Sequence record: PZ386957.1
DNA from: a phage
Direction: 5' to 3' (one strand)
DNA: 64,000 nt
The notes beneath the pieces were generated by a model that saw nothing but the letters and a program-made list of their open reading frames with translations, did not search any database and was not told the DNA's origin. This document shows positions 2,962 to 19,036 of this stretch, piece after piece. The position numbers and the translations under genes were made by a program. Every line of letters begins with the position of its first letter. The first letter of the stretch is position 1.

Positions 2962-5900
2962 ATGGCAGATTTACTAAGTCAACATTTTAAGGCCACATTT
3001 GGCTTTGATGCTGGTAATGAAAAGGTCGTCAATGTAGCATTGGCTGATAAGAACACTCTCACCGATGCCGTTAACGTTGAATTTTTCAATTACCATAACG
3101 GTATTACGCAGTATGACACAACTCGCGGTTATGATCAATACGGTACTGCAATTTATCAAAACCGTCCTTACTATGCAAAGGAAAACATCGCGAAGCCAGC
3201 GGGAGAATTTGATCCGACTAAATGGCAAGCACTGCGTACTGATCCGCGTTGGGATTACATTGCAGCGACTTCCGGCGATACTCCCCTAAAGTCTGGTGAT
3301 TATATCGCTGCGGATTGCCAATTTGCAAACTTAACATTCTCCATGCCTACTAAGCCAGCCGAAGGCGATACTATAACAGTAAAAGATATCGGTGGCAAGT
3401 GCGGTGTAAACGAATTGTCGTTCCTCGCATCTGGTCATGAGTTCTATCATAATGGCACAGTATACAATAGAAAATGGTATTGCACAACTCCTTATTCGAT
3501 GATGTATTTCATCTTTGCTCGTGGACGTTGGCATGTATACCAGACTGGAACAGAGCCGCGCGGGGTATATGCACAGCCAGCTATTGATCCAATCCAGATG
3601 CAAAACGGAGATCAGGTATTCCGTCGCAGTTCATTAGGTAATATTGTATTGAAATTACCTAAGTTTGCAAATAACGGTGATATCATCAATACCACGGACC
3701 TGGATGGATTGACCGCAACAAATCACGTTACCATCAAGACACACGAAGGAGCGCCGGACCATTCTATTGGTGCAGTCGGTGTAAAAGAGATTGTAGGCAA
3801 ACGTAGTGGTCACGGTGTATTCATCTTTGATATTACTGAAAACTTATGGCGTGTTTGGGATGGTGATCAGTCTGTACGCTTAACGCCTATCGCATCGGAT
3901 ACCCGCTTGCTGCCTAACACGTATGTCGCTGTATTCGGTGATCGCAATGTCACTTTAACATTGCCTACTAACGTAGAGATCGGGGATCGTATTCAGGTCG
4001 CATTACAATACATGCACGGTACACAAACTTGCAAGATTGTAACGTCTGGGGCAGATACCAAAATTTTAATGCAGAAAAACATGCTGCAATTCCCTAAACG
4101 CAGCGAATATCCGTTTAATGGATCTGATACGTGGAAGGAAGTAACAGAGTTATCTTTCAGTGCTGCAACTGATTATGTTCCGTATCTGGAGTTCTCTTAT
4201 TCAGAAGGTGATGACGGTAAAAAACACTGGTTAGTAGCACATGCTCATCCTATCGTAGAACGGGTAGATCCGACTCGTAAAGATCGTGTGGGTGTAATTG
4301 CGCTGGCTACTCAAGACGAAACCAATAAAAACCATGAGCAGAATCCGAGCGACGAAGTAGCTGTTACCCCTCGTGTGTTGGCTAATAAAACCGCAACCGA
4401 AACACGACGCGGTATTGCAAGAATTGCTACGCAAGCAGAAACGCATCAAAATACTGGTTCTAACTTCCTTGATGATGTTATCGTTACACCTAAAAAATTA
4501 AATGATTGTGTTGCTACTGAATCACGTCGTGGTGTGCTGGAAATTGCAACGCAAGCAGAGACTAACGAAGGTTTAGACGATACCCGCGCTATTACTCCTA
4601 AGAAATTAGAAGAACGTCGCGCGAGTGAAACGTTGGCAGGGATTGCGGAAATTATTACGGCTGGCGGTAACGCTGCGGCAGTTCGTGGTCAAGCTGGTTC
4701 CGGTATCTACGATATCAATGACCATGCTAAAATCGTTACTCCCCATAACCTGAATGAAGTTAAAGCGACAGAAACATCTCGCGGTGTAGGTTATCTGGCA
4801 ACTGACGCAGAAGTACAGGGAGCGACCGAAGCAACACCGCAAGATGCATTGTTAATCACTACCCGTACTTTGACTAAGCGTATTGCAACAGAAACGCGCA
4901 CGGGGATCGCGGAAATCGCTACTCAAGCAGAAACCAATCAGGGGCAGCTTGATACCCATATTGTTACGCCGTTAAAACTCAATAACCGTCGTGCAACCGA
5001 AACGCTACATGGTCTAGCAGAAATCGCAACTCAGGTTGAATTTGACACAGGTCGAGATGATGCTCGCATTTCTACCCCATTGAAGATTAAAACCTTCTTT
5101 GAGAATGCACAGCGTTTGAAAGTAGATCCTACTCAGGGGCTTAACCTTACTGGCGATTTGTGGCAAGGTATTACTATTCGCGGTCTGGATGCTGACGAAG
5201 CAACTAAAGGCGTTGCTAAAGTCGCTACTGTCCAGTTAACCGACGCTGGTACTGATGATACCACAATCATTACGCCGAAGAAATTACAAGGTAAAAAAGC
5301 CACTGAAGTTAAAGAAGGTATTATTCGTGTTGGTACTCAAGCCGAAACCGTAGCAGGTATACTGGATGATGTGGCAGTATCGCCGAAGAACTTCAAATAT
5401 GTTGTTCAGGTTGATGACACATGGAAAGCAACGGAAGCGCGTCGCGGTTTTCTGAAAGTATCTACAAAAGAAAACTGTTTTGTTGGTAATGACCTTGCTG
5501 GTTCCACTCAAGCAATTGATCAATATCTGCATGATGGAATCGCAGTTACCCCGCGTGGTTTAAACTATGCACTGGCTAACTTCTTACCTAAAATGGCAAC
5601 CGCTCAGAATAGTTTGAAATTAGGCAACGTAGAAGCCGCTAAATGGGCGCGTAGAGACGTTGATCAGACTATCGAGGCCAATTACACGTTTAAGAAAAAT
5701 ATCAACGTGGAGGGTGATTTAGAGTGCTTAAAATCAGGTACGTTTGAAACACTGTATGTAACCAAAAATTCAACTGACGAGGCGAGCACCGGAAATCTGG
5801 TATTAGGTATCCGTGGTCAAAATGGTCATACCGGAATTGCATTGCATGGCACAACCGGAGATATTGAGAACTCATGGGCTATGCTCGTAGGCGGTACTGG

Positions 5901-9632: not shown

Positions 9633-12389
9633 ATGGCAGATTTAAGCAGAATCCAATTTAAACGCACTAGCACAGCCGGACGTAAACCTGATGCGAATAT
9701 TCTAACTCCGGGTGAACTTGCTATTAACCTAGCGGATCGAGAACTATATACAAAAGATGATGACAATAATGTAATTACTTTGGGACACTTTCGCGGTGAA
9801 TTGCCAACTGATGCAAATTTAGATAATTATGGACCTACTGGTAAGTTTACTGGTATTTGGTCTAAAGCAACTTCAACCAACGCTCAGCCAACACATAAAT
9901 TCCCAGAAGATAATGCTGTGGGTGTATTGGAAGTATTTGCCGCTGGACAATTTGCCGGAACTCAGCGTTATACTGTTCGGTCTGGTAACGTCTATATTCG
10001 TTCCTTATCTGCTAAATGGAATGGTGTAGATGGTCCGTGGGGTGCGTGGAGGAATATTCAAACTGGTACACGACCACTATCAACCACATTGGACTTGAAT
10101 ACTTTAGGTGATGCATCTCATTTTGGTTTATGGAGGAATAGTTCAAGTTCTATTGCATCATTTTCTCGAAATTACCCAGAAGAAGGCGGTCTCGCGCAAG
10201 GTCTTTTAGAAATTTATGAAGGCGGTAACTATTCGCGCACACAGCGTTATACTACACGTATGGGTGTTGTGTATGTTCGTTGTCTTGCTGGTGCATGGGA
10301 TTCAGAAGCACCGAATTGGGGAGCGTGGCAACAAGTTGGTAACGTGACACCAGCGACTTTCTATGACGGAGACCTTAATAATTTTCGTTCTCCTGGTTTA
10401 TATAATATTTTAGGCACTGATGCCGTTATTAACTGTCCTACAGGGGAAGGGCTACCAGCCGTTATTGTTGGTTTATTGGAAGTTAAACAACGTGCTTCTG
10501 GTGGTGCAATTTTCCAAAAATTCACTACTGCCGGAACGGGAACTACTACCCGTGGACGTATTTTCGAACGTGCGATGACCAATAATATTTGGGGTGCATG
10601 GAACGAAGTATATACGTCTTATTCTCTGCCAATTACTTTGGGTATGGGTGGTGTTAAAACTCAGTTAACCGCGCTTGACTGGCAAACTTTCGATTTTGTT
10701 CCTGGTGCTATGTATAGCGTACCGTTGAACAAGATGACCAATATACCAGCAAATATGGATTGGGGAACTATTGATGGAAACCTAGTAATGCTGGCAGTAG
10801 GTCCGAGCGAGCATACCGGAACAGGTCGCACCGTTCAGGTTTGGCGTGGTACTGTAAGTCAAGCGAACTACCGTTATTTTGTCGTTCGTGTCGCCGGTAA
10901 TCCAGGAAACAGGACTAACACTTGTCGCCGTGTTGTTGTGGAAGATGGTCGCCATACATGGACAGCACAACAAGATTTTAATGGTGCTGTTAACTTCGGT
11001 AGCTCAACAACGTTTAAATCAACTACGACATTTAATACAGAAGTTAAATTCCGCTCATCTAACGCATTTCGTATGTATGGTGGTAACTTCGGTGCATTCA
11101 TGCGCAATGACGGTGAAAGTCTTTATATTCTTTCCACCAACGAAAATGATCAAGATGGAAACTTTAACACCAATAGACCTTTCCGATATCAATTGAAAAC
11201 TGGCGATGTTACTCTTGGTGGAACTAGCGGTGCTAACGCTTTAGTATTAAAAGGTGGTTCTCTTGCTGCTACCTTTGGTGGTGACATTAACTTGAGTAAA
11301 GGATATTTGACGTTTGAGGCTGGGCGATTATATTCTCGCGATTACTTCCGGTTTAACCATTGGGGTGATAGTAATAATGCGCGTGATAACATTATTCAGT
11401 TAGAAGATAGTCAAGGAGCACATTTTTCTACTGAACGTCAAATGTCAAACGGTGCAATTAAAACTAAATTCTTTGGACAAGTTGAGTCGAATGGACGGTT
11501 AACAATCAATGCACCAGGTGATGCTATTGTATTATCAACAACTGCTGGTAATTCTTTGCATATTCGCGGTGACGTAGGCGGGAATAATAACTGGTATATT
11601 GGTAAGGGTGGTGCTGATAATTCGCTAGCATTTTATAGCTATGCTACTCAGGCGGCAGTACATATCACAAACAACGGTGAGATTGCGTTAAACCCGCAAA
11701 ATACCGCAGTGGTTAACGTTAACCGCGACCGTGTGCATATCAATGGAACAGGTTGGGTTGCCCGACATTCCGGCGCATGGGTTGGCCAATGGAGAGAAGA
11801 AGCACCATTATTCGTTGATCACGGTAACGTTGGAGAGGATAGCTATTATCCGATTTTGAAAGGAAAAAGCAACATCACGAATCAAGGATATACTACTGCC
11901 GTAGATTTTGGTATACGTCGTGTTCCTAGCAAATGGGGTCAAGCAATTATTCGAGTTGCTTCTGCGGAGGCTTCACCTGATGCTGGTCATCCTCAAGCTG
12001 TATTTGAATTTCATCATGACGGATTATTTTATTCGCCAGGTAACGGTAATTTTAACGATGTGTATATTCGTTCTGATTCTCGTCTTAAGATCAATAAAGA
12101 AGAATTGGAAGATGGTGCAGTTGAAAAGGTATGTAGACTGAAAGTTTATACCTACGATAAAGTTAAGTCTATTAAAGATCGTAGTGTTATTAAACGTGAA
12201 GTTGGTGTTCTTGCTCAAGATCTTGAAAAAGAATTGCCCGAAGCTGTATCTAAAGTTGAAGTTGATGGATCTGATGTTCTGACAATTTCTAACTCTGCTG
12301 TGAATGCTCTTTTAATTAAGGCTATTCAGGAAATGAGCGAAGAATTGAAAGCCGTTAAAGCTGAACTAGCGGAACTTAAAAAGAATTAA
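9633..12389 (+). CDS. 37: gp37 distal long tail fibre with C-terminal intramolecular chaperone (S74-like) domain
   Basis: N-terminus MADLSRIQFKRTSTAGRKPDANILTPGELAINL resembles T4 gp37; C-terminal ~110 aa (SDSRLKINKEE...VGVLAQDLEKELPEAV...coiled coil) resembles self-cleaving chaperone domains of tail fibres/endosialidases. Confidence 0.85.
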   Translation: MADLSRIQFKRTSTAGRKPDANILTPGELAINLADRELYTKDDDNNVITLGHFRGELPTDANLDNYGPTGKFTGIWSKATSTNAQPTHKFPEDNAVGVLEVFAAGQFAGTQRYTVRSGNVYIRSLSAKWNGVDGPWGAWRNIQTGTRPLSTTLDLNTLGDASHFGLWRNSSSSIASFSRNYPEEGGLAQGLLEIYEGGNYSRTQRYTTRMGVVYVRCLAGAWDSEAPNWGAWQQVGNVTPATFYDGDLNNFRSPGLYNILGTDAVINCPTGEGLPAVIVGLLEVKQRASGGAIFQKFTTAGTGTTTRGRIFERAMTNNIWGAWNEVYTSYSLPITLGMGGVKTQLTALDWQTFDFVPGAMYSVPLNKMTNIPANMDWGTIDGNLVMLAVGPSEHTGTGRTVQVWRGTVSQANYRYFVVRVAGNPGNRTNTCRRVVVEDGRHTWTAQQDFNGAVNFGSSTTFKSTTTFNTEVKFRSSNAFRMYGGNFGAFMRNDGESLYILSTNENDQDGNFNTNRPFRYQLKTGDVTLGGTSGANALVLKGGSLAATFGGDINLSKGYLTFEAGRLYSRDYFRFNHWGDSNNARDNIIQLEDSQGAHFSTERQMSNGAIKTKFFGQVESNGRLTINAPGDAIVLSTTAGNSLHIRGDVGGNNNWYIGKGGADNSLAFYSYATQAAVHITNNGEIALNPQNTAVVNVNRDRVHINGTGWVARHSGAWVGQWREEAPLFVDHGNVGEDSYYPILKGKSNITNQGYTTAVDFGIRRVPSKWGQAIIRVASAEASPDAGHPQAVFEFHHDGLFYSPGNGNFNDVYIRSDSRLKINKEELEDGAVEKVCRLKVYTYDKVKSIKDRSVIKREVGVLAQDLEKELPEAVSKVEVDGSDVLTISNSAVNALLIKAIQEMSEELKAVKAELAELKKN

Positions 12390-12431: not shown

Positions 12432-12671
12432 ATGGTCTATAATATCGTCATTGGTGCCTTGTCTAGTTTCGGAATGAAACTATTATCAAAGTTAATTAGT
12501 GAAAAGATGCTCACTAAAATTTTCTTCTATTGCGCTCGTCGTCTTGCGGCATATACCAATACGCCAATTGATGATCGTTTCGTGGAAGAACTTTATAAGG
12601 AGTTTAATAAAGATCAGTCAGAAGATAGCAACGAGCAGAATAAAACGGGTGACAGTCAAGTACCTAAATAA
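12432..12671 (+). CDS. hypothetical small protein with hydrophobic N-terminus (79 aa)
   Basis: Strong RBS AAGGAGAAACGGCT before ATG; occupies the T4 gene 38 position between 37 and t; no similarity to gp38 recognised. Confidence 0.5.
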   Translation: MVYNIVIGALSSFGMKLLSKLISEKMLTKIFFYCARRLAAYTNTPIDDRFVEELYKEFNKDQSEDSNEQNKTGDSQVPK

Positions 12672-12705: not shown

Positions 12706-13362
12706 ATGCAAGTTTCTGAAAAAGAGAAAGACTTTGCTATCTCAAATGTCCTGCGCGCTATTTTCACAACTAAAAGCACGGAGTTGCTCGTACTTCGTGT
12801 TTTTGCTGCCGTTGTGTTGTCTATATTAGCATTTGTCGTTTATAGCAAAAACGAGTTGTTTGCGCTTTATAAAGAAACTCGTTATGAGACTTATGCTCAC
12901 GTTCTCCAGGTAGAAAAAGACCGCAATTTTGATAATGCAGCACAGGAGCAGTTACAGATAGTTCATGTGTCGGCAGATGCCGATTTTTCTGCTGTTTTTA
13001 GCTTTCGTCCAAAAAACCTAAACTATTTCGTTGATTTGGTGGCATATGAAGGAAAGCTACCGCATACAATCGATGAAAAGAATTTAGGCGGATTCCCTAT
13101 CAATAAAACGAGTGAAGAATATCGTAGGCATCTTTTAGGTAAATCCTATTTTACCGATAAAGATTTCCAGTATATTCCGTCGAGGGAGAAAAAATTAGAG
13201 AATATCGATATAGGATTCATGTATTCTTGTCCTATATTCAATCTCGATAATGTCTATTCTGGTAGTATCGCCATTGCATGGAAGAATAAACCAGATATTG
13301 ACATTGAGAATTTAGATACTCTTTGTAGTCAATCTGCCAGAATCCTCGGAAGGATTAGATAA
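12706..13362 (+). CDS. t: holin T
   Basis: 218 aa; YKETRYETY, EQLQIVHVSADADFSAVFSFRPKNLNYFVD, YEGKLPHTIDEKNLGG, MYSCPIFNLDNVYSGSI, SARILGR match remembered T4 holin T. Confidence 0.95.
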   Translation: MQVSEKEKDFAISNVLRAIFTTKSTELLVLRVFAAVVLSILAFVVYSKNELFALYKETRYETYAHVLQVEKDRNFDNAAQEQLQIVHVSADADFSAVFSFRPKNLNYFVDLVAYEGKLPHTIDEKNLGGFPINKTSEEYRRHLLGKSYFTDKDFQYIPSREKKLENIDIGFMYSCPIFNLDNVYSGSIAIAWKNKPDIDIENLDTLCSQSARILGRIR

Positions 13363-13367
13363 ATTAA

Positions 13368-13400
13368 AGGGGGAGCCTTTCGGCCTCCCCTTCTTTTTTA
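13368..13400. terminator. bidirectional rho-independent terminator between t and the convergent minus-strand cluster
   Basis: AAGGGGGAGCC-TTTC-GGCCTCCCCTT with T-runs on both strands. Confidence 0.7.
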
Positions 13401-13646
13401 GTGACGCATAGAAGCGCCTGAATCGCATTTTGACGCAGTATGATGAAAACATGTGGCGTACCAGTCATCGGCTTGTTTGTCCTCGTCAGAGAACGCATAA
13501 TTTCGTTGTATGCCGTTTTCTACTTTGACCAGTGCAATAGCTGTTTCTGGAAGATCAATCAATCGGACAAAATCACCATCTTCCCACTCTACACGAGCAA
13601 TATCATAACCCATCTCAAAATATGCAATCGCTTGTTCTAATTTCAT
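13398..13646 (-). CDS. hypothetical protein (82 aa)
   Basis: ORF track; first gene of a tightly packed minus-strand array; no motif recognised. Confidence 0.45.
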   Translation of the reverse strand: MKLEQAIAYFEMGYDIARVEWEDGDFVRLIDLPETAIALVKVENGIQRNYAFSDEDKQADDWYATCFHHTASKCDSGASMRH

Positions 13647-13975
13647 TCTGGAAACTTCCCGTAAATGTTCTCTGCCAACATACGCGCATCGCTAATGATA
13701 TCTTTCATGCTATGACCGTAGTGTTCAGCCATTGAGTTGATACAATCAACAAATAAATTATAACGGCGACGGTTTAAGATTTCTTCTCTGTTATAGTTTT
13801 CATACTTGACGGTCGAGTGTGCTTTCTCGATTGCCTTAATCGCTATATTGACTTCATTAATAATGGTTTTAGCATTATATGCGCCACGACGGATCAGGAT
13901 ATTTGTCAATTCTCTTGCAATATCTTGCAATTCTTCATATTCATGTTCAAACATAATCAACCTCTCAAAATACAA
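13643..13975 (-). CDS. hypothetical protein (110 aa)
   Basis: ORF track; 4-nt overlap with neighbour; no motif recognised. Confidence 0.45.
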   Translation of the reverse strand: MYFERLIMFEHEYEELQDIARELTNILIRRGAYNAKTIINEVNIAIKAIEKAHSTVKYENYNREEILNRRRYNLFVDCINSMAEHYGHSMKDIISDARMLAENIYGKFPE

Positions 13976-13978
13976 TCC

Positions 13979-14311
13979 TTACAGATGAAAACCTGTTACG
14001 ATCACCGCATCGATCATACCGCTAGGGATAAACGGTTCGCCCTCTTTTATTTCAACTTTGAATTGATGCCATTTTGCTAATGCTTCTTCCGGTACACCCA
14101 GCGATTCGGCGTCTGCTTTAGTTTCATCCATAATCCAACTAGGCTGCATGAGGGCATAGTTTACATAGTCCATTTCTGGGGTCATGTCATCAATGTTAAT
14201 ATATTTGCAGTTGACGCGTTTCAGAATTTCAAATTCTTTATCGTCAACCTGTACCATATACAATTCAGTAGTTTCTGGAATCAGTTCCCATACAATCAGT
14301 ACATTTTTCAT
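13979..14311 (-). CDS. hypothetical protein (110 aa)
   Basis: ORF track; compact operon context. Confidence 0.45.
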   Translation of the reverse strand: MKNVLIVWELIPETTELYMVQVDDKEFEILKRVNCKYINIDDMTPEMDYVNYALMQPSWIMDETKADAESLGVPEEALAKWHQFKVEIKEGEPFIPSGMIDAVIVTGFHL

Positions 14312-14319
14312 AGTTCACC

Positions 14320-14688
14320 TCACTTAACAAAGATTTTCTTTAATGCTTTCAGGATCGTTGCTTCCGGCGCTTCTTCCGGTGGAGGAAGCAATTCTACCAC
14401 TTCCTCTTCCAACTCGATATAGTCTACCAGATATTCTACATAAAATGCAAGTGCTTCCATGAAATTAAATGCTACATCCGATTCACCGCACGCACCAACA
14501 TGCATTGTATAAACATCGCTGCGATCAAGTTTGTGGATACTGCCTAGATAGTTTCGGTTATACCAAACTTCCCACACTTTCAGTTTTCCGGTTTTGGTTG
14601 CTGTTTTATAGTCGGTTTCGTAGTGGTGCAATTGACGTTGCAGGTCATTGATAATAACACATTTTTCGTAATTGTTTTGAATTTCCAT
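14320..14688 (-). CDS. hypothetical acidic protein (122 aa)
   Basis: ORF track; compact operon context. Confidence 0.45.
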   Translation of the reverse strand: MEIQNNYEKCVIINDLQRQLHHYETDYKTATKTGKLKVWEVWYNRNYLGSIHKLDRSDVYTMHVGACGESDVAFNFMEALAFYVEYLVDYIELEEEVVELLPPPEEAPEATILKALKKIFVK

Positions 14689-14698
14689 GATGTAATCC

Positions 14699-14890
14699 TC
14701 ACTTATCGTTAAGAAGTTCTAAAACTTTCTGTCGTACTTTGTCAATATTAGTTGATTCAAAAACTGTACGGTATCCCCAGCTTTGACCGTATGATCGCGA
14801 GCAATCCCCATATCCCCATTGTTCAACCTGATAGTATTCAAGGAATGGGTGTTGCCGAACTATGATACCATCACGATTAAAAATTACCAT
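14699..14890 (-). CDS. hypothetical protein (63 aa)
   Basis: ORF track; preceded by the conserved AGAGGATTATATT-ATG style leader. Confidence 0.4.
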   Translation of the reverse strand: MVIFNRDGIIVRQHPFLEYYQVEQWGYGDCSRSYGQSWGYRTVFESTNIDKVRQKVLELLNDK

Positions 14891-14912
14891 AATATAATCC
14901 TCATGTCAAAAC

Positions 14913-15206
14913 TTATCTTCGGTTGTAATTCTGCCACTTTCGGTAATACTGCTTGTAAACCTGTTTTTCGTTTTCGCCATCTTTACTATACATGTTATCT
15001 ACCATCAAGTCAATAAGACCTTCCGGTGTCTGGTAGTTACCCGCTCGGATAAGTTCTTTAATTAAAGTGTCCTGATGATCTTTGTATACTACGTTAATGA
15101 TGGTCTTTTCTGCTTTCTTCGTCCCGATCATCCGGTGATTAGCTTTCATTGCATCCCACCAATCTTTTGTGATCTTCATGCTATTGAATTTCATAGTTAC
15201 TTGCAC
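14913..15206 (-). CDS. hypothetical protein (97 aa)
   Basis: ORF track; overlaps downstream gene start by 10 nt. Confidence 0.4.
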   Translation of the reverse strand: MQVTMKFNSMKITKDWWDAMKANHRMIGTKKAEKTIINVVYKDHQDTLIKELIRAGNYQTPEGLIDLMVDNMYSKDGENEKQVYKQYYRKWQNYNRR

Positions 15207-15961
15207 CCGTACTGGTCAATGTATGTTCTTGAATAATTTTTATGTACTTCTAAGCGAATCATATCTTGATTATCACGCCACACATAATATTTTTTGTTAT
15301 CCACTTGACCTTCATATTGCATAGCACCATTCTGATGCGTCACGGTTTTTGTTTTTGCTTTATGTGCGTTATAATTATCACGATACACAAATTCAATAAT
15401 TTCCCCGTCTTTTACTTTAAGTTTAAGTTCACCAGAGTTATAACGAGGATAACCAGGGTCTTTAACTACTTTTGTTTCTACCCCGTCGTGGATTTCCCAT
15501 TCATAGTGAACATCGCATTGTAATGTCATATCGCCTGTAAATCCTTTTGGTTTCTCTTCAACCTTCGGTTCTTCCACTACCTTTTCTTCCTGCTTTGGTT
15601 GTTCTTCAACCTTCACAGAAGTCTCTGAATCGCTCTCTGGCGATGTTTCTTCTTTAGGTAATACATTCATCAAGTTTTGGATTTGAGCGTTATACACAGC
15701 TTCCAGTGGCTGAATCTGCCCGATATTGATCATTGTATCACGAACAGTTTTATTCCAGTTGCGTTGCTCTTGTTTCAGAGACGGATCAATCTTAACAGCC
15801 TTAACATATACTTCATGGAGTTTAGAATCCAGTGCGGAGATTGACTCATTAGCACAAATAAACTTCTCTGATTTGGTAGTAGCCTTAGTGCAATCGAAGG
15901 ACGCAGCATTAGCACCGAAAGCAGTAGCAGAAAGAACTATAGCAGCGATAATGTTTTTCAT
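15197..15961 (-). CDS. secreted protein with N-terminal DUF1311 / LprI-like (lysozyme-inhibitor family) domain
   Basis: Signal peptide MKNIIAAIVLSATAFGANA; then SFDCTKATTKSEKFICANESISALDSKLHEVY...QRNWNKTVRD, the C..C...LD..L...Y...QR.W...RD pattern of DUF1311; Lys/Glu-rich linker; C-terminal beta-rich domain. Confidence 0.6.
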   Translation of the reverse strand: MKNIIAAIVLSATAFGANAASFDCTKATTKSEKFICANESISALDSKLHEVYVKAVKIDPSLKQEQRNWNKTVRDTMINIGQIQPLEAVYNAQIQNLMNVLPKEETSPESDSETSVKVEEQPKQEEKVVEEPKVEEKPKGFTGDMTLQCDVHYEWEIHDGVETKVVKDPGYPRYNSGELKLKVKDGEIIEFVYRDNYNAHKAKTKTVTHQNGAMQYEGQVDNKKYYVWRDNQDMIRLEVHKNYSRTYIDQYGCK

Positions 15962-15989
15962 AATATATTCCTCAGTGTTTTGTCTTGAT

Positions 15990-16024
15990 GGGAGTATCTT
16001 ACTACTCCCTTAATCCGGTGTCAA
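15990..16024 (-). promoter_or_regulatory. early sigma70-type promoter with inverted repeat around -10 (PeSL-like)
   Basis: Minus strand TTGACA-17 nt-TAAGAT; GGGAGTA/TACTCCC inverted repeat flanks the -10; AGGAATATATT ATG follows. Confidence 0.65.
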
Positions 16025-16031
16025 CTACTTT

Positions 16032-16187
16032 TTAAATTTCTTCTACAGTAAAGTCTTCAATGTTGTTGTGCTCGGAGAACGTTGCCAGACCAGCATCCCA
16101 CGCATCATCCTCAGAGAAGAATACACCATAACGTTCATATCCTTTAGCGCCTTCAAATTTAACCATTAATTTGTGAGTATGTTTCAT
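16032..16187 (-). CDS. hypothetical protein (51 aa; start moved to internal Met with RBS AAGGAGAATC)
   Basis: Track ORF 16032..16250 would overlap the promoter; internal ATG at 16187 has strong SD. Confidence 0.4.
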   Translation of the reverse strand: MKHTHKLMVKFEGAKGYERYGVFFSEDDAWDAGLATFSEHNNIEDFTVEEI

Positions 16188-16218
16188 TTTGATTCTCCTT
16201 CGTTGTCTTGATGAGTTC

Positions 16219-16247
16219 ATTGTAGGGGATCGGCGATCCCCTGTCAA
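16219..16247 (-). promoter_or_regulatory. early sigma70-type promoter with palindromic spacer
   Basis: TTGACA-GGGGATCGCCGATCCCC-TACAAT on minus strand. Confidence 0.6.
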
Positions 16248-16257
16248 CAACTATTTT

Positions 16258-16470
16258 TTAATTTTTACCCGCTAGTGCATTAATACGCATTTTCTGAATA
16301 GCCATGATCTGGCTTACTGCTTCTTCTTTACGTTCTTGTGTGATAACGTGACCAGATTCCGCAAACTCCCCCGCAACATCTTCTACAATCTCGCGAACTT
16401 GAGAACGTCCAAAGATGCGGTTTCCTTCGTAGCTCATAAACTCGGTCACTACTTGCTCAATAGATTTCAT
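16258..16470 (-). CDS. hypothetical protein (70 aa)
   Basis: ORF track; RBS AAAGGAGAATCATC before ATG. Confidence 0.45.
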   Translation of the reverse strand: MKSIEQVVTEFMSYEGNRIFGRSQVREIVEDVAGEFAESGHVITQERKEEAVSQIMAIQKMRINALAGKN

Positions 16471-16495
16471 GATGATTCTCCTTTCGTTTGGTATG

Positions 16496-16529
16496 GGAGT
16501 ATCTTACTACCGACGACCTTTGGCGTCAA
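16496..16529 (-). promoter_or_regulatory. early sigma70-type promoter (TTGACG-17-TAAGAT)
   Basis: Minus strand TTGACG, 17-nt spacer, TAAGAT, then ACTCCC. Confidence 0.6.
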
Positions 16530-16718
16530 CTAATTTTTATGGAATTTTAAATTATTTTCGACCTTCATCCATTCCGCGTATTCTTGCGCGGCTACTTTCG
16601 GATTTAGTCCGTCTTCGTACATTGCATCAAGTAATTCTTCGTCGGTGGGCTTATACCCTAGATAAGCCGCAACCTGATTTTTCCAAATCTTATACCAGTT
16701 CATATTATCACCAATCAA
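16530..16718 (-). CDS. hypothetical protein (62 aa)
   Basis: ORF track. Confidence 0.4.
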   Translation of the reverse strand: MIGDNMNWYKIWKNQVAAYLGYKPTDEELLDAMYEDGLNPKVAAQEYAEWMKVENNLKFHKN

Positions 16719-16980
16719 GAGCGCGTGTCTCTGCGTCTTCCCATGCTTGATTCATTACCGCCGTGAAAACATATTCTAAAGTATCATCTTTCGCAAATCC
16801 AAAGATCTTAGACGGGATATCTTCAATTGCTACTCCAGCAACTTCTGCATTACGCGCTTGGCAATAATGCAACTCTAAGTTATCGAGATAACGACCGCCT
16901 AATTTCTCCATATCATCCCAGCATTTCCAATAGCCTACTTTATCTGCGATTGCTAACACTATGCTGTTTTCGTTGTTCAT
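16708..16980 (-). CDS. hypothetical protein (90 aa; start moved to internal Met)
   Basis: Internal ATG at 16980 preceded by AGGAGAATCAAAG; track start 17046 would overlap the promoter. Confidence 0.45.
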   Translation of the reverse strand: MNNENSIVLAIADKVGYWKCWDDMEKLGGRYLDNLELHYCQARNAEVAGVAIEDIPSKIFGFAKDDTLEYVFTAVMNQAWEDAETRALDW

Positions 16981-17014
16981 CTTTGATTCTCCTAGTTCGT
17001 TTCGGTATGTGTGT

Positions 17015-17043
17015 ATTATGCAATGTTGGATTCTGGAAGTCAA
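17015..17043 (-). promoter_or_regulatory. early sigma70-type promoter (TTGACT-17-CATAAT)
   Basis: Minus strand TTGACT, 17-nt spacer, CATAAT. Confidence 0.6.
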
Positions 17044-17057
17044 CAACTTTTTTCAAA

Positions 17058-17084
17058 TAAAAAAGCCGACCACAAGGGTCGGCT
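17058..17084 (-). terminator. rho-independent terminator
   Basis: Minus strand GAGCCGACC-CTTGT-GGTCGGCT followed by TTTTTTAT. Confidence 0.7.
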
Positions 17085-17094
17085 CAATAATCAG

Positions 17095-17475
17095 TTACTT
17101 GCTAAATTTCTTTTTAGCTTCATCGACTGCATGAGATGCCAGCACCGCCGCCGCATGTGCACTTTTATCTGTGTTACAGAGAACACCCAGATAAACATCA
17201 CGCCAAAGTTTAATCATCTCATAGATCATATCAATATCATTTTCTTGCTTGTTGGCGATGGTATTCGTCGTTATCTGGTACGGTGACGGCTTAACCTGTG
17301 CTGGATCTGCCATCGGGCTAATCGGTGTCGAATCAGTCATAGGCTTTACTTTAAATACGTCATCATACCACGGTTTAACGGTTGTACCGTACAGTTTATA
17401 AGGATTTTTGTCTGGATCAACCATCCATGTATGATGAATATCTAAACCATTTGAAGTAATGCGTCGCTCAGTCAT
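17095..17475 (-). CDS. hypothetical protein (126 aa)
   Basis: ORF track; 4-nt overlap with upstream ORF. Confidence 0.45.
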   Translation of the reverse strand: MTERRITSNGLDIHHTWMVDPDKNPYKLYGTTVKPWYDDVFKVKPMTDSTPISPMADPAQVKPSPYQITTNTIANKQENDIDMIYEMIKLWRDVYLGVLCNTDKSAHAAAVLASHAVDEAKKKFSK

Positions 17476-17681
17476 GTTTTGCCCCCCTCTGATAATTCTT
17501 TCATCAAATTGTCAATCTTTGCTCGGTGTTCTGGTGTGTTTGTTATCTCTGCTAATTTGTTCAGAGATTCAATGGTGATGCGGTTTGCCTCTTCCATCGT
17601 TTCAACAACCATTGGCACGATCTTTTTATTGTTTAATAAGAAAGCGACATACCCACCAACCGGATAATCTTTCATAATCAC
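17472..17681 (-). CDS. hypothetical protein (69 aa)
   Basis: ORF track; 4-nt overlap with gene 52. Confidence 0.45.
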   Translation of the reverse strand: MIMKDYPVGGYVAFLLNNKKIVPMVVETMEEANRITIESLNKLAEITNTPEHRAKIDNLMKELSEGGKT

Positions 17682-19036
17682 CCCTTCAATTCTTTAAGGT
17701 CTTTCTTATACTCTTTCAAAGATGTGGTTTTCATCCAATAATCATATTCCTTATGGTGTTTTTCTGCATCTTTGACCAGTCGATCATATTCTTCTTGCGT
17801 TACGCTGTACAGTGGCATAGAAACGAGTTTATCAGCGTACTGGCGCAGTTTTTCGTGTTCCTTGATGGATTGCATTACCTCGGTCTTTTTCTTTCCCTGT
17901 AACGCGATCTCGCCCTTAATTACGCGATCAATAAATTCGGCTTTAGCCATTGCATAATTGTAGGCTTCGAGTGTCTCCGCTTGCATATGCTCAATTCGTT
18001 TATCGACATACCCTAAACGAATCTCGACAAATCGACGAATTAGGTCGCTTGCTTTCTCGAATACCTCTACTCGTCCACGTTCATTAACAACGACTATATT
18101 TTGTGCGACAAGCTGTGTCAGCTTAAAATCTTTCATGATCTGCTCATGTCGATGATCTTCGTTGTCGCTTTTGAAGTAGTCACGTTTCAGAGTAACTTCA
18201 AACCGAAAACCTTCTTTAGAGCACCGATCATTATATGAGACAATAGCGCCTTTTTCTTCCAGTACATCAAGTACAGCGACATAGCTTTCACGGTCAAACT
18301 TATAGGGAACTTCTGTTATTGTCAGCTTAGTTTTGCCGTTTAGTTCATATGTACCCTCTAGAATAACACCATCTCGGTCATCACGCGGGATAACTTTACC
18401 AGTAAATTTCGGGAATTGAACACTAGGTTCTTTATCCAGTTTTCCGGCTAGTGCTAGCTCTGTGCATTCAATAAGGCTTTCCAGTGAATGCGGTAAAATG
18501 TCAGTTTTATACCCTGTAGCAATACCACTAACACCATTAGCTAATACCATTGGCACAACTGGCAAGTAGAACGCTGGCGGAATATGTTCTAAATCTTCGT
18601 GCTTTGGTGCGCATTCCATATCTTTATAGATTTTAAAGAAGTTTTCATGCACACGAGCGAAGATATAACGTGCTGCACCTGCTTTCTGGACTAAACGCGA
18701 TCCAAAGTTCCCTTGACCGTCAAGCAGTGGAGTATTATTGCTCCACGTATTCGCCATGAGTGATCCTGCTTCTACGGCATTAGTTTCCCCGTGGTGATAA
18801 CCTAACTCAGCGACACCCGATCCAATATCTGCCATCTTACGGAATTTCTTACGGTCGCCTTTACTCTTTTGTAAAGCACATTCCATAACAAAGCGTTGCA
18901 CTGGTTTAAGTCCATCTACTAATTGAGGAATACCGCGTTCCTCTGCGGAATAGATCGCATATTCCTTAGCTTCATTATGTACAATGCTTTCAAGGCTGCG
19001 GTAAGTAACTGATTTATTCATCTTCACCTCATACAC
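17678..19036 (-). CDS. 52: DNA topoisomerase II medium subunit gp52 (GyrA-like)
   Basis: 452 aa; PQLVDGLKPVQRFV, GNFGS, ARYIFARV, GVSGIATGYKTDILPH are GyrA/ParC-type motifs as in T4 gp52. Confidence 0.92.
   Translation of the reverse strand: MYEVKMNKSVTYRSLESIVHNEAKEYAIYSAEERGIPQLVDGLKPVQRFVMECALQKSKGDRKKFRKMADIGSGVAELGYHHGETNAVEAGSLMANTWSNNTPLLDGQGNFGSRLVQKAGAARYIFARVHENFFKIYKDMECAPKHEDLEHIPPAFYLPVVPMVLANGVSGIATGYKTDILPHSLESLIECTELALAGKLDKEPSVQFPKFTGKVIPRDDRDGVILEGTYELNGKTKLTITEVPYKFDRESYVAVLDVLEEKGAIVSYNDRCSKEGFRFEVTLKRDYFKSDNEDHRHEQIMKDFKLTQLVAQNIVVVNERGRVEVFEKASDLIRRFVEIRLGYVDKRIEHMQAETLEAYNYAMAKAEFIDRVIKGEIALQGKKKTEVMQSIKEHEKLRQYADKLVSMPLYSVTQEEYDRLVKDAEKHHKEYDYWMKTTSLKEYKKDLKELKG

What the first reader, a model, noticed from the sequence alone, without database searches (positions are those of the whole stretch)
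13398..17681. Thirteen small ORFs of unknown function replace the T4 asiA/arn/motA region between t and gene 52
Between the t terminator and gene 52 lies a 4.3-kb array of short, tightly coupled minus-strand ORFs punctuated by PeSL-like promoters. None shows features of MotA, AsiA or Arn that I can recognise by eye. This is the classic hyperplastic region where T4-like phages keep host-takeover and anti-defence genes, so these ORFs are candidates for novel host-interaction functions.
Basis: inference. Interest (0 to 1): 0.5.

Follow-up and report, generated by a model that had tools for sequence, protein, structure and literature searches.

The report
Early accessory-gene island of RB49-like phage
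This stretch is the already-described variable region between the holin gene t and topoisomerase gene 52 of an RB49-type (Krischvirus) coliphage: thirteen real small early genes driven by mobile promoter cassettes, with no MotA, AsiA or Arn, so it is largely ordinary, though three of the genes give testable leads.

Summary
Thirteen minus-strand genes fill 13398-17681 between t and gene 52. All match phage protein families, all are conserved in relatives, and substitutions fall mainly on third codon positions. Four sigma-70-type promoter and stem-loop cassettes sit in the upstream half and match the published PeSL definition.

The window is a Krischvirus; the closest record is phage Brandy, 93.9% identical. 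This lineage was reported to lack motA in 2002 and 2006, and its PeSLs were described in 2010, so the main claim is not new.

Pfam, PHROG, BLAST and phmmer searches found no MotA, AsiA or Arn homologue. The replacement is not complete, though: O4 is the homologue of T4 Arn.4.

Three genes can be described further:
- O1 has the Tad2/AcrIIA7 (DUF2829) fold. It lacks the usual insertion, and acidic residues replace the diphosphate-binding Asn-Gly.
- O7 is a secreted DUF1311/LprI domain joined to a variable beta-barrel. Copies 92-96% identical lie in E. coli chromosomes, in the one copy examined at the edge of a prophage.
- O5 is 85-90% identical to genes of rV5-like phages.

The other nine genes remain uncharacterised. 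Interest is low to moderate.

The parts
12706..13362 (+). Gene t (holin), left border of the region
   Evidence: Pfam Phage_holin_T, 208 bits; phrog_860 holin.
13366..13393 (.). G+C-rich hairpin between the convergent genes t and O1; likely a bidirectional terminator
   Evidence: Folds at -19.0 kcal/mol, z -3.05. Sequence read.
13398..13646 (-). O1, 82 aa, acidic (pI 4.6). A minimal Tad2/AcrIIA7-fold (DUF2829) protein. Its start overlaps the O2 stop codon (ATGA).
13643..13954 (-). O2, 103 aa, function unknown. Variable among relatives (53-95% identity). A paralogue sits next to it in RB49, phi1 and SSG23.
   Evidence: phrog_9457, E 7.5e-46. Second hit at 32-33% identity in L005-L007.
13979..14311 (-). 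O3, 110 aa, acidic, function unknown (phrog_4658). The family is shared with T4-like phages of Klebsiella, Cronobacter, Citrobacter and Enterobacter and with RB16.
   Evidence: The Roth23 homologue is annotated 'acb2', but no test here supports that.
14320..14688 (-). O4, 122 aa, homologue of T4 Arn.4 (function unknown)
   Evidence: BLASTP E 1e-8 against the extended T4 arn.4 reading frame. Both fall in phrog_1594. Noted in the RB49p259 record.
14699..14890 (-). O5, 63 aa, function unknown. A widely exchanged small gene.
   Evidence: phrog_6957. 85-91% identical copies in rV5-like phages of 132-144 kb; 37-45% identical copies in jumbo and T7-like phages.
14913..15194 (-). O6, 93 aa, basic (pI 9.5), function unknown. 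Variable (48-95% identity).
   Evidence: phrog_15915.
15197..15961 (-). O7, 254 aa, secreted. Parts: signal peptide 1-19 (cleavage after ANA), four-helix DUF1311/LprI domain about 24-98, disordered acidic linker 104-139, variable beta-barrel 145-253 with conserved Cys149 and Cys253.
15962..16031 (-). PeSL cassette upstream of O7: TTGACA, 17-nt spacer, TAAGAT (16024-15996). The stem-loop at 15990-16009 overlaps the -10 box. GAGGAA precedes the ATG.
   Evidence: Promoter match 10 of 12. Hairpin -11.9 kcal/mol, z -2.5. Conserved in four relatives.
16032..16187 (-). O8, 51 aa, function unknown
   Evidence: phrog_19699, matching residues 22-72 of the longer ORF. AGGAGA precedes the ATG at 16187.
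16188..16257 (-). PeSL cassette upstream of O8: TTGACA, 17-nt spacer, TACAAT (16247-16219). The poly-G/poly-C stem GGGGATCG/CGATCCCC lies in the spacer.
   Evidence: Promoter match 11 of 12. Hairpin -16.3 kcal/mol, z -3.8..
16258..16470 (-). O9, 70 aa, function unknown
   Evidence: phrog_14966; 86-96% identical in relatives.
16471..16529 (-). PeSL cassette upstream of O9: TTGACG, 17-nt spacer, TAAGAT. It looks chimeric: the 5' half resembles one cassette and the 3' half the next cassette of Brandy and SSG23, which flank an extra ORF there.
   Evidence: (18-nt exact repeat D17). The hairpin is weak (z -1.4).
16530..16703 (-). O10, 57 aa, function unknown. Coupled to O11.
   Evidence: phrog_8655.
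16708..16980 (-). O11, 90 aa, acidic, function unknown. Homologues at 38-46% identity in Citrobacter and E. coli phages of about 45-50 kb.
   Evidence: phrog_7287, matching residues 27-112 of the longer ORF.
16981..17094 (-). PeSL cassette upstream of O11: terminator-like hairpin 17063-17085 followed by a T-run, then TTGACT, 17-nt spacer, CATAAT (17043-17015), then AGGAGA and ATG.
   Evidence: Terminator and promoter scan. Hairpin -15.5 kcal/mol, z -5.4..
17095..17475 (-). O12, 126 aa, function unknown
   Evidence: phrog_15644, E 2.4e-75; 80-97% identical in relatives.
17472..17675 (-). O13, 67 aa (or 69 aa from the GTG at 17681), function unknown. Coupled to the end of gene 52.
   Evidence: phrog_15105.
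17678..19036 (-). Gene 52 (topoisomerase II medium subunit), right border of the region
   Evidence: Pfam DNA_topoisoIV, 237 bits; phrog_551.

Best explanation
The region is the variable stretch between t and gene 52 of an RB49-like (Krischvirus) T4-type phage. This lineage has no MotA/AsiA middle-transcription system, and it carries an island of 13 small accessory genes where T4 has asiA, arn and motA.

Proposed expression (inferred from sequence). Host sigma-70 RNA polymerase transcribes the island early, on the minus strand. Transcripts either read through from gene 52 or start at four PeSL cassettes. Each cassette runs: stop codon, AT-rich stretch, TTGAC(N), 17-nt spacer, TAnnAT, with a stem-loop, then a strong Shine-Dalgarno sequence and ATG. 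The last cassette, upstream of O7, would give one message covering O7 to O1, ending at the hairpin shared with t.

Gene turnover. The repeated cassettes also act as recombination sites that add or remove single genes. Relatives with six cassettes carry two to three more ORFs. The cassette upstream of O9 looks like a recombinant of two cassettes.

Content:
- O4 is the orthologue of T4 Arn.4, so one T4 gene of this region is retained.
- O1 has the Tad2/AcrIIA7 (DUF2829) fold. Most likely it is a small oligomeric binder that soaks up a nucleotide-derived immune signal. Its pocket differs from characterised Tad2 proteins, so the ligand is probably not bound as gcADPR is bound in SPO1 Tad2. I put about 0.3 on it being a sponge for a Thoeris-type signal and about 0.5 on it being some ligand-sequestering anti-defence protein.
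- O7 is exported to the periplasm. Its constant DUF1311/LprI four-helix domain is joined by an acidic linker to a swappable, disulfide-clamped beta-barrel. Most likely it protects the infected or lysogenised cell from an attack arriving from outside, for example by inhibiting a peptidoglycan hydrolase of a superinfecting phage, as T4 Spackle does. I put about 0.35 on this.
- The other nine genes are real but uncharacterised.

Shown here: gene reality, family and fold assignments, absence of MotA/AsiA/Arn, cassette anatomy. Inferred: expression timing, ligand binding, periplasmic exclusion.
For: - Identity of the phage: 63 phage records match. The best is Brandy, with 93.9% identity over 91% of the region. 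The records examined are classified as Krischvirus.
- Coding: PHROG hits for all 13 ORFs, conservation in four relatives and a 142/143/542 split of substitutions by codon position.
- No MotA, AsiA or Arn. The literature agrees.
- O4 is Arn.4.
- PeSLs: searches match the published definition. The window, RB49 and phi1 have four cassettes. Brandy and SSG23 have six and carry extra ORFs.
- No late promoter in the region.
Against: - There are no expression data. Promoter activity is inferred from consensus matches and from published work on relatives.
- O1: Foldseek against the PDB found nothing. A profile search of PDB sequences found nothing. hhalign against three solved Tad2 proteins aligned only the first 23 columns, at 6% probability. 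The model is of moderate confidence (pLDDT 73, from 5 sequences).
- O1 pocket: the Asn-Gly that contacts the diphosphate in Tad2 is Glu-Asp in O1, and Thr78 is Glu. The beta2-beta3 insertion that forms the dimer interface and the cyclic-dinucleotide pocket is absent.
- The closest structural match to O1, AcrIIA7, has also been reported to act by binding tracrRNA.
- Nine of the 13 genes have no functional lead.
Confidence: 0.75

Rival explanations
1. Highly divergent MotA, AsiA or Arn homologues are hidden among the 13 ORFs. In that case the region would be a diverged version of the T4 asiA-arn-motA block rather than a replacement.
For: Synteny: the position between t and 52 is the same as in T4, and one T4 gene of that block, arn.4, is retained as O4. 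Small fast-evolving proteins can escape sequence searches. AsiA-like proteins occur in phages without MotA.
Against: No Pfam hit at E<=0.1. No hit to phrog_1166, 3151 or 1345. blastp, phmmer and tblastn were negative for the ORFs and for the whole window. Earlier published attempts on RB49 also failed. No ORF has the length of MotA (211 aa) apart from O7, which is secreted.
Confidence: 0.03
2. O1 is not a signal sponge. It uses the DUF2829 fold for something else, such as binding RNA like AcrIIA7, or binding a host protein.
Against: O1 is strongly acidic (pI 4.6), whereas RNA binding by AcrIIA7 depends on a lysine- and arginine-lined groove. E. coli has no type II CRISPR system (my own knowledge). 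The pocket tryptophan, the second aromatic residue and the Ser and Asp of the Tad2 pocket are kept and are invariant within the O1 family.
Confidence: 0.3
3. O7 does not exclude other phages. It acts on the phage's own lysis programme or on host cell-wall enzymes, for example by modulating a lytic transglycosylase as Salmonella ScwA does, or by delaying the phage's own endolysin.
For: The only soluble periplasmic LprI-domain protein found here's reading, ScwA, regulates MltD levels and does not inhibit lysozyme. O7 lies 1.8 kb from the holin gene t.
Against: O7 is predicted to be expressed early, from a sigma-70-type cassette, and not with the late lysis genes. The same gene travels as a terminal cargo gene of a temperate prophage, which is typical of lysogenic-conversion and exclusion genes. 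A rapidly swapped C-terminal domain fits a changing external target better than a conserved host enzyme.
Confidence: 0.25
4. Most of the ORFs are dispensable passengers of selfish PeSL cassettes, with no consistent role in host takeover or anti-defence.
For: Gene content varies by whole cassettes between close relatives. Nine ORFs have no detectable family function. Published work describes PeSL and ORFan mini-circles.
Against: There is a strong third-position bias in substitutions. All 13 genes are retained in the four relatives examined, and O1 is present in 59 Krischvirus-type records. O5 is kept at 85-91% identity across unrelated phage genera.
Confidence: 0.15

Closest known systems
The t-gene 52 region of phages RB49, phi1, JSE and Brandy (Krischvirus), with PeSL cassettes
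   Same: Same gene order and the same 13 genes at 48-100% amino-acid identity. The four PeSL cassettes match almost base for base. All are annotated as hypothetical proteins.
   Different: The window lacks RB49p256.1 and p257 (p257 is a paralogue of O2), phi1p263.1, and the two to three extra cassette ORFs of Brandy and SSG23. It has its own O7 barrel variant and a chimeric cassette upstream of O9. Most of its proteins are not exact matches to anything in the 15-billion-protein collection.
The T4 asiA-arn-motA region between t and 52
   Same: Same flanking genes, same strand and same early expression logic. Arn.4 is shared, as O4.
   Different: There is no AsiA, AsiA.1, Arn, Arn.1-3, MotA or MotA.1. 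The promoters are E. coli-consensus PeSLs, not T4 early or Mot-box middle promoters.
Tad2 / AcrIIA7 (DUF2829, Pfam PF11195): tetrameric sponges for gcADPR, His-ADPR and cyclic dinucleotides
   Different: O1 has essentially no beta2-beta3 insertion, so it has no cyclic-dinucleotide pocket and lacks the helix used for dimerisation. Asn-Gly after the Trp is Glu-Asp, and Thr78 is Glu. It has an extra disordered C-terminal tail. No PDB hit at the sequence level was found. The family is very small: 8 relatives among 1.8 billion representative proteins, three of which are spurious FN3-repeat matches.
Mycobacterium tuberculosis LprI (DUF1311 plus MliC lysozyme inhibitor) and the periplasmic LprI-domain proteins ScwA and T6SS immunity proteins
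   Same: O7 is exported, has a DUF1311/LprI helical domain with paired cysteines, and has a C-terminal small beta-barrel in the position where LprI carries the MliC barrel.
   Different: O7 has no lipobox and so is soluble, not a lipoprotein. Its barrel has no sequence match to MliC. The barrel is swapped between strains. O7 is encoded by lytic phages and prophages.
T4 Spackle (gp61.3), a periplasmic inhibitor of the gp5 tail lysozyme that gives superinfection exclusion
   Same: A proposed functional analogy only: a small secreted early phage protein acting in the periplasm (my own knowledge of Spackle).
   Different: No sequence or fold relationship was found or specifically tested. O7 has two domains and is much larger.

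Membership tests
MotA (T4 middle-transcription activator) | Match to the MotA N-terminal or C-terminal double-wing domains (Pfam) or to phrog_1345 | tested here: not met
   No Pfam hit at E<=0.1 for any of the 13 ORFs. No hit to phrog_1345, which T4 MotA matches at E 2e-98. The best blastp E-value is 0.15 against a database of 13 sequences.
AsiA (anti-sigma-70) | Match to the AsiA family (Pfam or phrog_1166); a helical protein of about 90 aa | tested here: not met
   No Pfam or PHROG hit. blastp and phmmer were non-significant, and tblastn of the whole window gave E >= 1.9. The fold of most ORFs was not tested.
Arn (inhibitor of McrBC) | Match to phrog_3151 or to the T4 Arn sequence | tested here: not met
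   The best blastp E-value is 0.21.
Arn.4 family (phrog_1594) | Sequence homology to T4 Arn.4 | tested here: met
   O4 against the extended T4 arn.4 frame: BLASTP E 1e-8, 29% identity over 63 aa. O4 matches phrog_1594 at E 3e-25 and T4 Arn.4 matches it at E 1e-53.
Tad2 / DUF2829 (PF11195) | Pfam model score above the gathering threshold | tested here: met
   O1 scores 29.3 bits, P0026 26.1 and P0027 25.5, against a threshold of 25.
Tad2 / DUF2829 (PF11195) | [quoted passage not shown] | tested here: met
Tad2 / DUF2829 (PF11195) | Pocket residues making van der Waals and hydroxyl contacts: SPO1 W25, W73, S76, D79 | tested here: met
   These map to O1 W21, Y50, S53 and D56. W21, Y50 and D56 are invariant in the O1 family, and position 53 is Ser or Thr.
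Tad2 / DUF2829 (PF11195) | Asn-Gly after the Trp, contacting the diphosphate (SPO1 N26; HgmTad2 N22/G23), and Thr78 | tested here: not met
   O1 has E22-D23 and E55. Relatives also have acidic residues at these positions.
Tad2 / DUF2829 (PF11195) | The beta2-beta3 insertion with a helix, which forms the dimer interface and, in long forms, the cyclic-dinucleotide pocket | tested here: not met
   The alignment shows about 5 residues in O1 where SPO1 has about 24 and HgmTad2 about 41.
Tad2 / DUF2829 (PF11195) | Homotetramer that sequesters an immune signal and restores phage growth | not testable with these tools
   This needs SEC-MALS, ligand-binding assays and infection assays.
PeSL (promoter-early stem-loop cassettes of RB49 and phi1) | Sigma-70 consensus -35 and -10 boxes, an AT-rich upstream stretch holding the stop codon of the previous gene, and a Shine-Dalgarno sequence plus ATG downstream | tested here: met
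   Four sites with 9-11 of 12 matches and 17-nt spacers, at 17043, 16529, 16247 and 16024. The definition is quoted.
PeSL (promoter-early stem-loop cassettes of RB49 and phi1) | An associated stable stem-loop, often poly-G/poly-C, lying upstream of, between or overlapping the promoter boxes | tested here: met
   z-scores are -5.4 (upstream of the promoter), -3.8 (in the spacer, GGGGATCG/CGATCCCC) and -2.5 (overlapping the -10 box). The fourth is weak at z -1.4.
PeSL (promoter-early stem-loop cassettes of RB49 and phi1) | Cassettes flank ORFs that are gained or lost between relatives | tested here: met
   Four cassettes in the window, RB49 and phi1; six in Brandy and SSG23, each extra cassette accompanying an extra ORF. 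The cassette at 16529 combines the 5' half of one Brandy cassette with the 3' half of the next.
PeSL (promoter-early stem-loop cassettes of RB49 and phi1) | Promoter and attenuator activity in vivo | not testable with these tools
   Shown for other PeSLs of phi1 in the literature, not for these four.
LprI / DUF1311 (PF07007) | Pfam score above the gathering threshold, and the helical fold | tested here: met
LprI / DUF1311 (PF07007) | Exported protein with conserved cysteine pairs | tested here: met
   N-terminal hydrophobic signal ending in ANA followed by AS. C24 and C36 in the N-terminal domain and C253 in the barrel are invariant, and C149 is nearly so. These are read from the sequence and from alignments A1 and A5. 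No signal-peptide predictor was available.
M. tuberculosis LprI-type lysozyme inhibitor | An MliC/PliC domain and a lipoprotein anchor | tested here: not met
M. tuberculosis LprI-type lysozyme inhibitor | Inhibition of lysozyme or muramidase activity | not testable with these tools
   This needs enzyme assays. ScwA, which has an LprI domain alone, does not inhibit lysozyme.
Acb2 (anti-CBASS sponge) | Sequence similarity of O3 to Acb2 / T4 Vs.4 | tested here: not met
   The lead was a depositor's annotation of the phrog_4658 homologue in Klebsiella phage Roth23. Neither O3 nor the Roth23 protein has a supporting Pfam or PDB-sequence hit. O3 against T4 Vs.4 gives E 2.9.

The most novel reading that the evidence does not exclude
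Two of the genes may be undescribed kinds of counter-defence or exclusion tools.

1. O1 may be a stripped-down Tad2-fold protein with no insertion domain and an acidic pocket. It would sequester an immune signal other than those known for Tad2, or bind a known one in a different, possibly metal-bridged, way. It is 95-98% identical in the 59 Krischvirus-type records found.

2. O7 may found a family of periplasmic exclusion or immunity proteins. A constant DUF1311 domain would carry interchangeable disulfide-clamped barrels, and the gene is traded at 92-96% DNA identity between lytic T4-type phages and temperate E. coli prophages.
Probability: 0.2. Interest if true: 0.6.

Novelty: new member of a known kind. 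Interest (0 to 1): 0.3.

Why it matters
The headline claim, that small unknown ORFs stand where T4 has asiA, arn and motA, restates what has been published for RB49-type phages since 2002-2010. It does not open a new question.

The value lies in the leads. O1 is a near-invariant, minimal Tad2-fold gene in every Krischvirus-type record found. It could show how far the sponge fold can be reduced and what E. coli immune signal these phages need to neutralise. O7 is a secreted two-domain protein with a fast-swapping barrel, shared almost unchanged between lytic and temperate phages. It is a concrete candidate for a periplasmic superinfection-exclusion or cell-wall-protection factor. The chimeric cassette gives a clean natural example of PeSL-mediated gene loss or gain.

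Tried and rejected
- Direct comparison of T4 AsiA, AsiA.1, Arn, Arn.1-4, MotA and MotA.1 with the 13 ORFs and the whole window by blastp, tblastn and phmmer found nothing significant. The exception is Arn.4, once its reading frame is extended upstream.
- NCBIfam and PADLOC scans gave no hits except one far below its threshold.
- Rfam and tRNA scans found nothing credible.
- Homologue searches for O1 returned only 2-4 proteins from the word-indexed search, with either the single sequence or the alignment. The exhaustive search returned 8, three of which are spurious FN3-repeat eukaryote-type proteins.
- PDB sequence searches with O1, its family profile, the Klebsiella phage homologue, O3 and the Roth23 'acb2' protein found no relevant hit.
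- hhalign of the O1 family against three solved Tad2 proteins aligned only the N-terminal 23 columns.
- The Acb2 lead for O3 was not supported.
- An MliC domain in the O7 barrel was not supported by sequence in any variant.
- Desplats 2002 could not be read. The statement that RB49 lacks asiA therefore rests on Nolan 2006, which does not list RB49 among the phages with AsiA. The part of this phage's genome outside the 64-kb window was not searched.
- Exact-sequence look-up returned only 'hypothetical protein' names.

Full report
WHAT THE WINDOW IS

The 4.45-kb query matches 63 phage records by megablast. The best is Enterobacteria phage Brandy, with 93.9% identity over 91% of the query. RB49, phi1, JSE and many other Escherichia and Shigella phages follow. 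The records examined are classified as Krischvirus. The window therefore comes from an RB49-like "pseudo-T-even" coliphage. Gene t lies at 12706-13362 on the plus strand (Pfam Phage_holin_T, 208 bits). Gene 52 lies at 17678-19036 on the minus strand (DNA_topoisoIV, 237 bits).

CHECK OF THE OBSERVATION

The ORF listing gives exactly 13 consecutive minus-strand ORFs between the two genes. Reading the strand shows that six of the mechanical starts are too far upstream. ATG codons preceded by AGGAG- or GAGG-type Shine-Dalgarno sequences give these genes:

| Gene | Coordinates | Length |
|---|---|---|
| O1 | 13398-13646 | 82 aa |
| O2 | 13643-13954 | 103 aa |
| O3 | 13979-14311 | 110 aa |
| O4 | 14320-14688 | 122 aa |
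| O5 | 14699-14890 | 63 aa |
| O6 | 14913-15194 | 93 aa |
| O7 | 15197-15961 | 254 aa |
| O8 | 16032-16187 | 51 aa |
| O9 | 16258-16470 | 70 aa |
| O10 | 16530-16703 | 57 aa |
| O11 | 16708-16980 | 90 aa |
| O12 | 17095-17475 | 126 aa |
| O13 | 17472-17675 | 67 aa |

They are real genes, for three reasons:
- Every one matches a PHROG family, with E from 5e-19 to 9e-119.
- Every one is present in Brandy, RB49, phi1 and SSG23.
- Substitutions against those four phages fall 142, 143 and 542 times on codon positions 1, 2 and 3.

GC and AT skew are negative across the stretch, in keeping with minus-strand coding. There is no tRNA and no Rfam match near a gathering score. There is no T4-type late promoter TATAAATA in the region; the whole window has two, at 2926 and 8031.

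THE PROMOTERS

The generic promoter scan is not enriched overall, with 13 sites found and 14.0 +/- 3.9 expected. But the four best sites on the coding strand fall in the four larger intergenic gaps:
- TTGACT-17-CATAAT at 17043-17015
- TTGACG-17-TAAGAT at 16529-16501
- TTGACA-17-TACAAT at 16247-16219
- TTGACA-17-TAAGAT at 16024-15996

Each is preceded by the stop codon of the previous gene within an AT-rich stretch. Each is followed by AGGAGA or GAGGAA and an ATG. Each also has a stem-loop:
- a terminator-like hairpin upstream of the -35 box (17063-17085; -15.5 kcal/mol, z -5.4);
- a poly-G/poly-C stem in the spacer (GGGGATCG/CGATCCCC; z -3.8);
- a stem overlapping the -10 box (GGGAGTA/TACTCCC; z -2.5);
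- a weak one (z -1.4).

This is the published definition of PeSLs, which were discovered in phi1 and RB49 (Arbiol et al. 2010, PMC2839356). The cassettes share exact repeats.

The cassettes also track gene content. The same pattern finds four cassettes in the window, RB49 and phi1. It finds six in Brandy and SSG23, and each extra cassette accompanies an extra ORF. The window's cassette at 16529 has the -35 box and spacer of one Brandy cassette (TTGACGCCAAAGGTC.TCGGTAGTA) and the leader of the next (ACCAAACGAAAGGAGAATCA). The two join at the shared GTAGTA..ATACTCCCA core. This is what recombination between two PeSLs with loss of the ORF between them would leave behind.

A hairpin at 13366-13393 (-19 kcal/mol) separates the convergent t and O1. 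I therefore infer early sigma-70 transcription. The last cassette would give one message running from O7 to O1. No expression data were available.

MotA, AsiA AND Arn

None of the 13 proteins hits a MotA or AsiA model, or any other relevant Pfam model, at E<=0.1. T4 AsiA, Arn and MotA fall in phrog_1166, 3151 and 1345, and none of the 13 ORFs hits those families. blastp and phmmer of all nine T4 proteins of the asiA-motA.1 block against the ORFs gave nothing significant. Neither did tblastn against the whole 64-kb window.

This agrees with the literature. Attempts to find a motA orthologue or middle promoters in RB49 failed, and RB49 is not among the phages listed as having AsiA (Nolan et al. 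2006, PMC1524935, citing Desplats et al. 2002). I could not read Desplats 2002, and I did not scan the part of the genome outside the window.

ONE T4 GENE IS RETAINED

The RB49 record notes that RB49p259 resembles a "12.8 kD" T4 protein of the asiA-motA region. O4 is 98% identical to RB49p259. O4 aligns with the T4 arn.4 reading frame at BLASTP E 1e-8, provided that frame is extended upstream of its annotated Met. Both fall in phrog_1594. So "replace" is not fully accurate.

O1, A MINIMAL Tad2-FOLD PROTEIN

Evidence for the fold:
- O1 scores 29.3 bits on Pfam Tad2-like (PF11195, threshold 25), covering the whole profile. Its two divergent relatives also pass.
- An AF2 model from a five-sequence alignment (pLDDT 73) has one N-terminal helix, five strands and a short helix. 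This matches the published Tad2 topology.

Evidence that the similarity is weak at the sequence level:
- The family is tiny. There are 2-4 proteins in the word-indexed searches. There are 8 in the exhaustive search of 1.8 billion representatives, three of which are spurious FN3-repeat matches.
- PDB sequence searches found nothing.
- Foldseek found nothing.

I recovered the sequences of solved Tad2 proteins through PDB searches and aligned them with the O1 family. A6, G13, R18, W21, D56, D61 and W62 are invariant across both groups. The ligand-contacting residues of SPO1 Tad2 are W25, N26, W73, S76, T78 and D79. They map to O1 W21, E22, Y50, S53, E55 and D56. The aromatic, Ser and Asp contacts are kept. 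The Asn-Gly that holds the diphosphate is Glu-Asp in O1 (HgmTad2 N22/G23).

O1 also lacks the beta2-beta3 insertion. In known Tad2 proteins that insertion forms part of the dimer interface and, in long forms, the cyclic-dinucleotide pocket. hhalign supports only the first 23 columns.

O1 is acidic, with pI 4.6. That argues against the tracrRNA-binding mode reported for AcrIIA7, which uses a basic groove. O1 is 95-98% identical in 59 of the 61 phage records that match it. It therefore behaves as a conserved gene of the genus, not a variable one.

My reading is a ligand-sequestering anti-defence protein with an altered pocket. I put about 0.5 on that, and about 0.3 on the ligand being a Thoeris-type signal. 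No paper in the searched library links Krischvirus with Thoeris or anti-defence.

O7, A SECRETED TWO-DOMAIN PROTEIN

O7 begins with a signal peptide (MKNIIAAIVLSATAFGANA, then AS) and has no lipobox. It scores 23.5 bits on Pfam LprI/DUF1311, against a threshold of 22. A weak DUF1311 hit for the RB49 gene was already listed in 2006.

The AF2 model (22 sequences) has three parts:
- a confident four-helix domain at 30-98;
- a disordered acidic linker at 104-139;
- a confident beta-barrel of eight to nine strands at 145-253.

The architecture still parallels M. tuberculosis LprI, which is DUF1311 plus MliC. The LprI domain alone has not been shown to inhibit lysozyme. Salmonella ScwA does not inhibit it and instead controls MltD levels. 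DUF1311 proteins are also proposed as T6SS immunity proteins.

Across homologues, residues 1-125 are almost invariant. The barrel is replaced by unrelated-looking variants that keep only Gly160 and the two cysteines at 149 and 253.

The gene also occurs on the chromosome of 26 of 5426 complete E. coli genomes. Eight copies are full length at 92-96% DNA identity to this window's variant. In strain MEI003 it is the terminal gene of an inserted element. That element carries a terminase gene 7.7 kb away and truncates hicB. A second barrel variant occupies the same hicAB-adjacent site in other strains.

A secreted gene with a fast-swapping domain, carried by both lytic phages and prophages, fits protection of the cell envelope against attack from outside. 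I propose periplasmic superinfection exclusion or inhibition of an incoming peptidoglycan hydrolase, by analogy with T4 Spackle. I put about 0.35 on this. The main alternative is a ScwA-like effect on host wall enzymes.

THE OTHER GENES

A tblastn search with ten of the proteins joined end to end gave the following:
- O5 is 85-91% identical to a gene of rV5-like phages (132-144 kb). It is 37-45% identical to genes of jumbo phages and of T7-like phages, where it lies next to the DNA ligase gene.
- O3 (phrog_4658) has 33-41% identical homologues in T4-like phages of Klebsiella, Cronobacter, Citrobacter and Enterobacter, in RB16, and in some 50-kb Klebsiella phages.
- O11 has 38-46% identical homologues in Citrobacter and E. 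coli phages of about 45-50 kb.

The Roth23 homologue of O3 is annotated "anti-CBASS protein acb2". I found no support for that in Pfam, in PDB sequences or in a comparison with T4 Vs.4.

O2 has a paralogue next to it in RB49, phi1 and SSG23. O2, O6 and the O7 barrel are the variable members, at 48-95% identity. NCBIfam and PADLOC gave no useful hit, and source names are all "hypothetical protein".

VERDICT

The absence of MotA, AsiA and Arn and the presence of PeSLs are correct, but both were already published for this genus. One T4 gene of the block survives, and two ORFs belong to named families.

The region is an ordinary, moderately variable early accessory-gene island of a new Krischvirus isolate. 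Its worthwhile leads are the minimal Tad2-fold gene O1, the secreted modular gene O7 shared with prophages, and a clean example of a recombinant PeSL. Interest 0.3; new member of a known kind.

Noticed in passing
L002 (T4 NC_000866) 3628-3960, minus strand: The annotated T4 arn.4 (68 aa, NP_049872.2) looks truncated at its N-terminus. Similarity to O4 (WDIWYHGAYLGTI against WEVWYNRNYLGSI) and the phrog_1594 profile both extend about 42 residues upstream of the annotated Met. That upstream frame has no ATG, GTG or TTG after the preceding stop; it begins ATT ATT AAC.
   Followed up: partly
window 15197-15961; L011 9001-9768; L003 6001-6795: O7 has chromosomal copies in 26 of 5426 complete E. coli genomes. 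Eight are full length at 92-96% DNA identity. The others share only the N-terminal half and carry a different barrel. In the loci examined the gene lies next to hicAB, and in MEI003 it sits at the end of an inserted element that carries a terminase gene and truncates hicB. This points to recent exchange between lytic Krischvirus phages and temperate prophages.
   Followed up: partly
window 14699-14890: The 63-aa O5 is 85-91% identical at the protein level to a gene of rV5-like phages (132-144 kb). One such record is labelled a Campylobacter phage. More distant copies occur in jumbo phages and in T7-like Yersinia and Salmonella phages next to the DNA ligase gene. It is a very mobile small gene of unknown function.
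   Followed up: no
window 16471-16529, compared with L001 5045-4982 and 4732-4674: The PeSL upstream of O9 is a chimera. Its -35 box and spacer match the cassette that precedes an extra ORF in Brandy and SSG23. Its leader matches the next cassette. The junction lies at the shared GTAGTA..ATACTCCCA core, as expected for PeSL-by-PeSL recombination with loss of one ORF.
   Followed up: partly
L009 (Klebsiella phage Roth23) 1185-1604 and 2706-2996: The O3 homologue in Roth23 (phrog_4658) is deposited as 'anti-CBASS protein acb2', with no support from Pfam, PDB sequences or T4 Vs.4. Two genes before the holin gene, the same phage has a 96-aa ORF with a sub-threshold Tad2-like Pfam hit (16.4 bits). 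A Tad2-like gene near t may therefore recur in other T4-like genera.
   Followed up: partly
L008 (Klebsiella phage VLCpiP4b) 1501-1707: The only O1 homologue outside Krischvirus in the phage collection (38% identity, found in 2 Klebsiella phage records) is a 68-aa ORF between two tail-protein genes of a Schitoviridae podophage. This is an unexpected setting for an anti-defence sponge.
   Followed up: no
proteins P0025, P0029, P0030: The exhaustive phmmer search with O1 returned long FN3-repeat proteins, one with a tyrosine-phosphatase domain, at E down to 2e-14 through 6-8 summed weak stretches. These are repeat-inflated false positives, not relatives.
   Followed up: yes
window 12432-12671, plus strand: A 79-aa ORF with a hydrophobic N-terminus (phrog_402, function unknown) sits between the long tail-fibre gene (9633-12389) and t. 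T4 has gene 38 in this position.
   Followed up: no
window 15013-14985, minus strand: A fifth good sigma-70-like site (TTGACT-17-TATAGT, 10 of 12 matches) lies inside O6, about 95 nt upstream of the O5 start. It lacks the stem-loop and the AT-rich context of a PeSL. It may be an internal promoter or a chance match.
   Followed up: no
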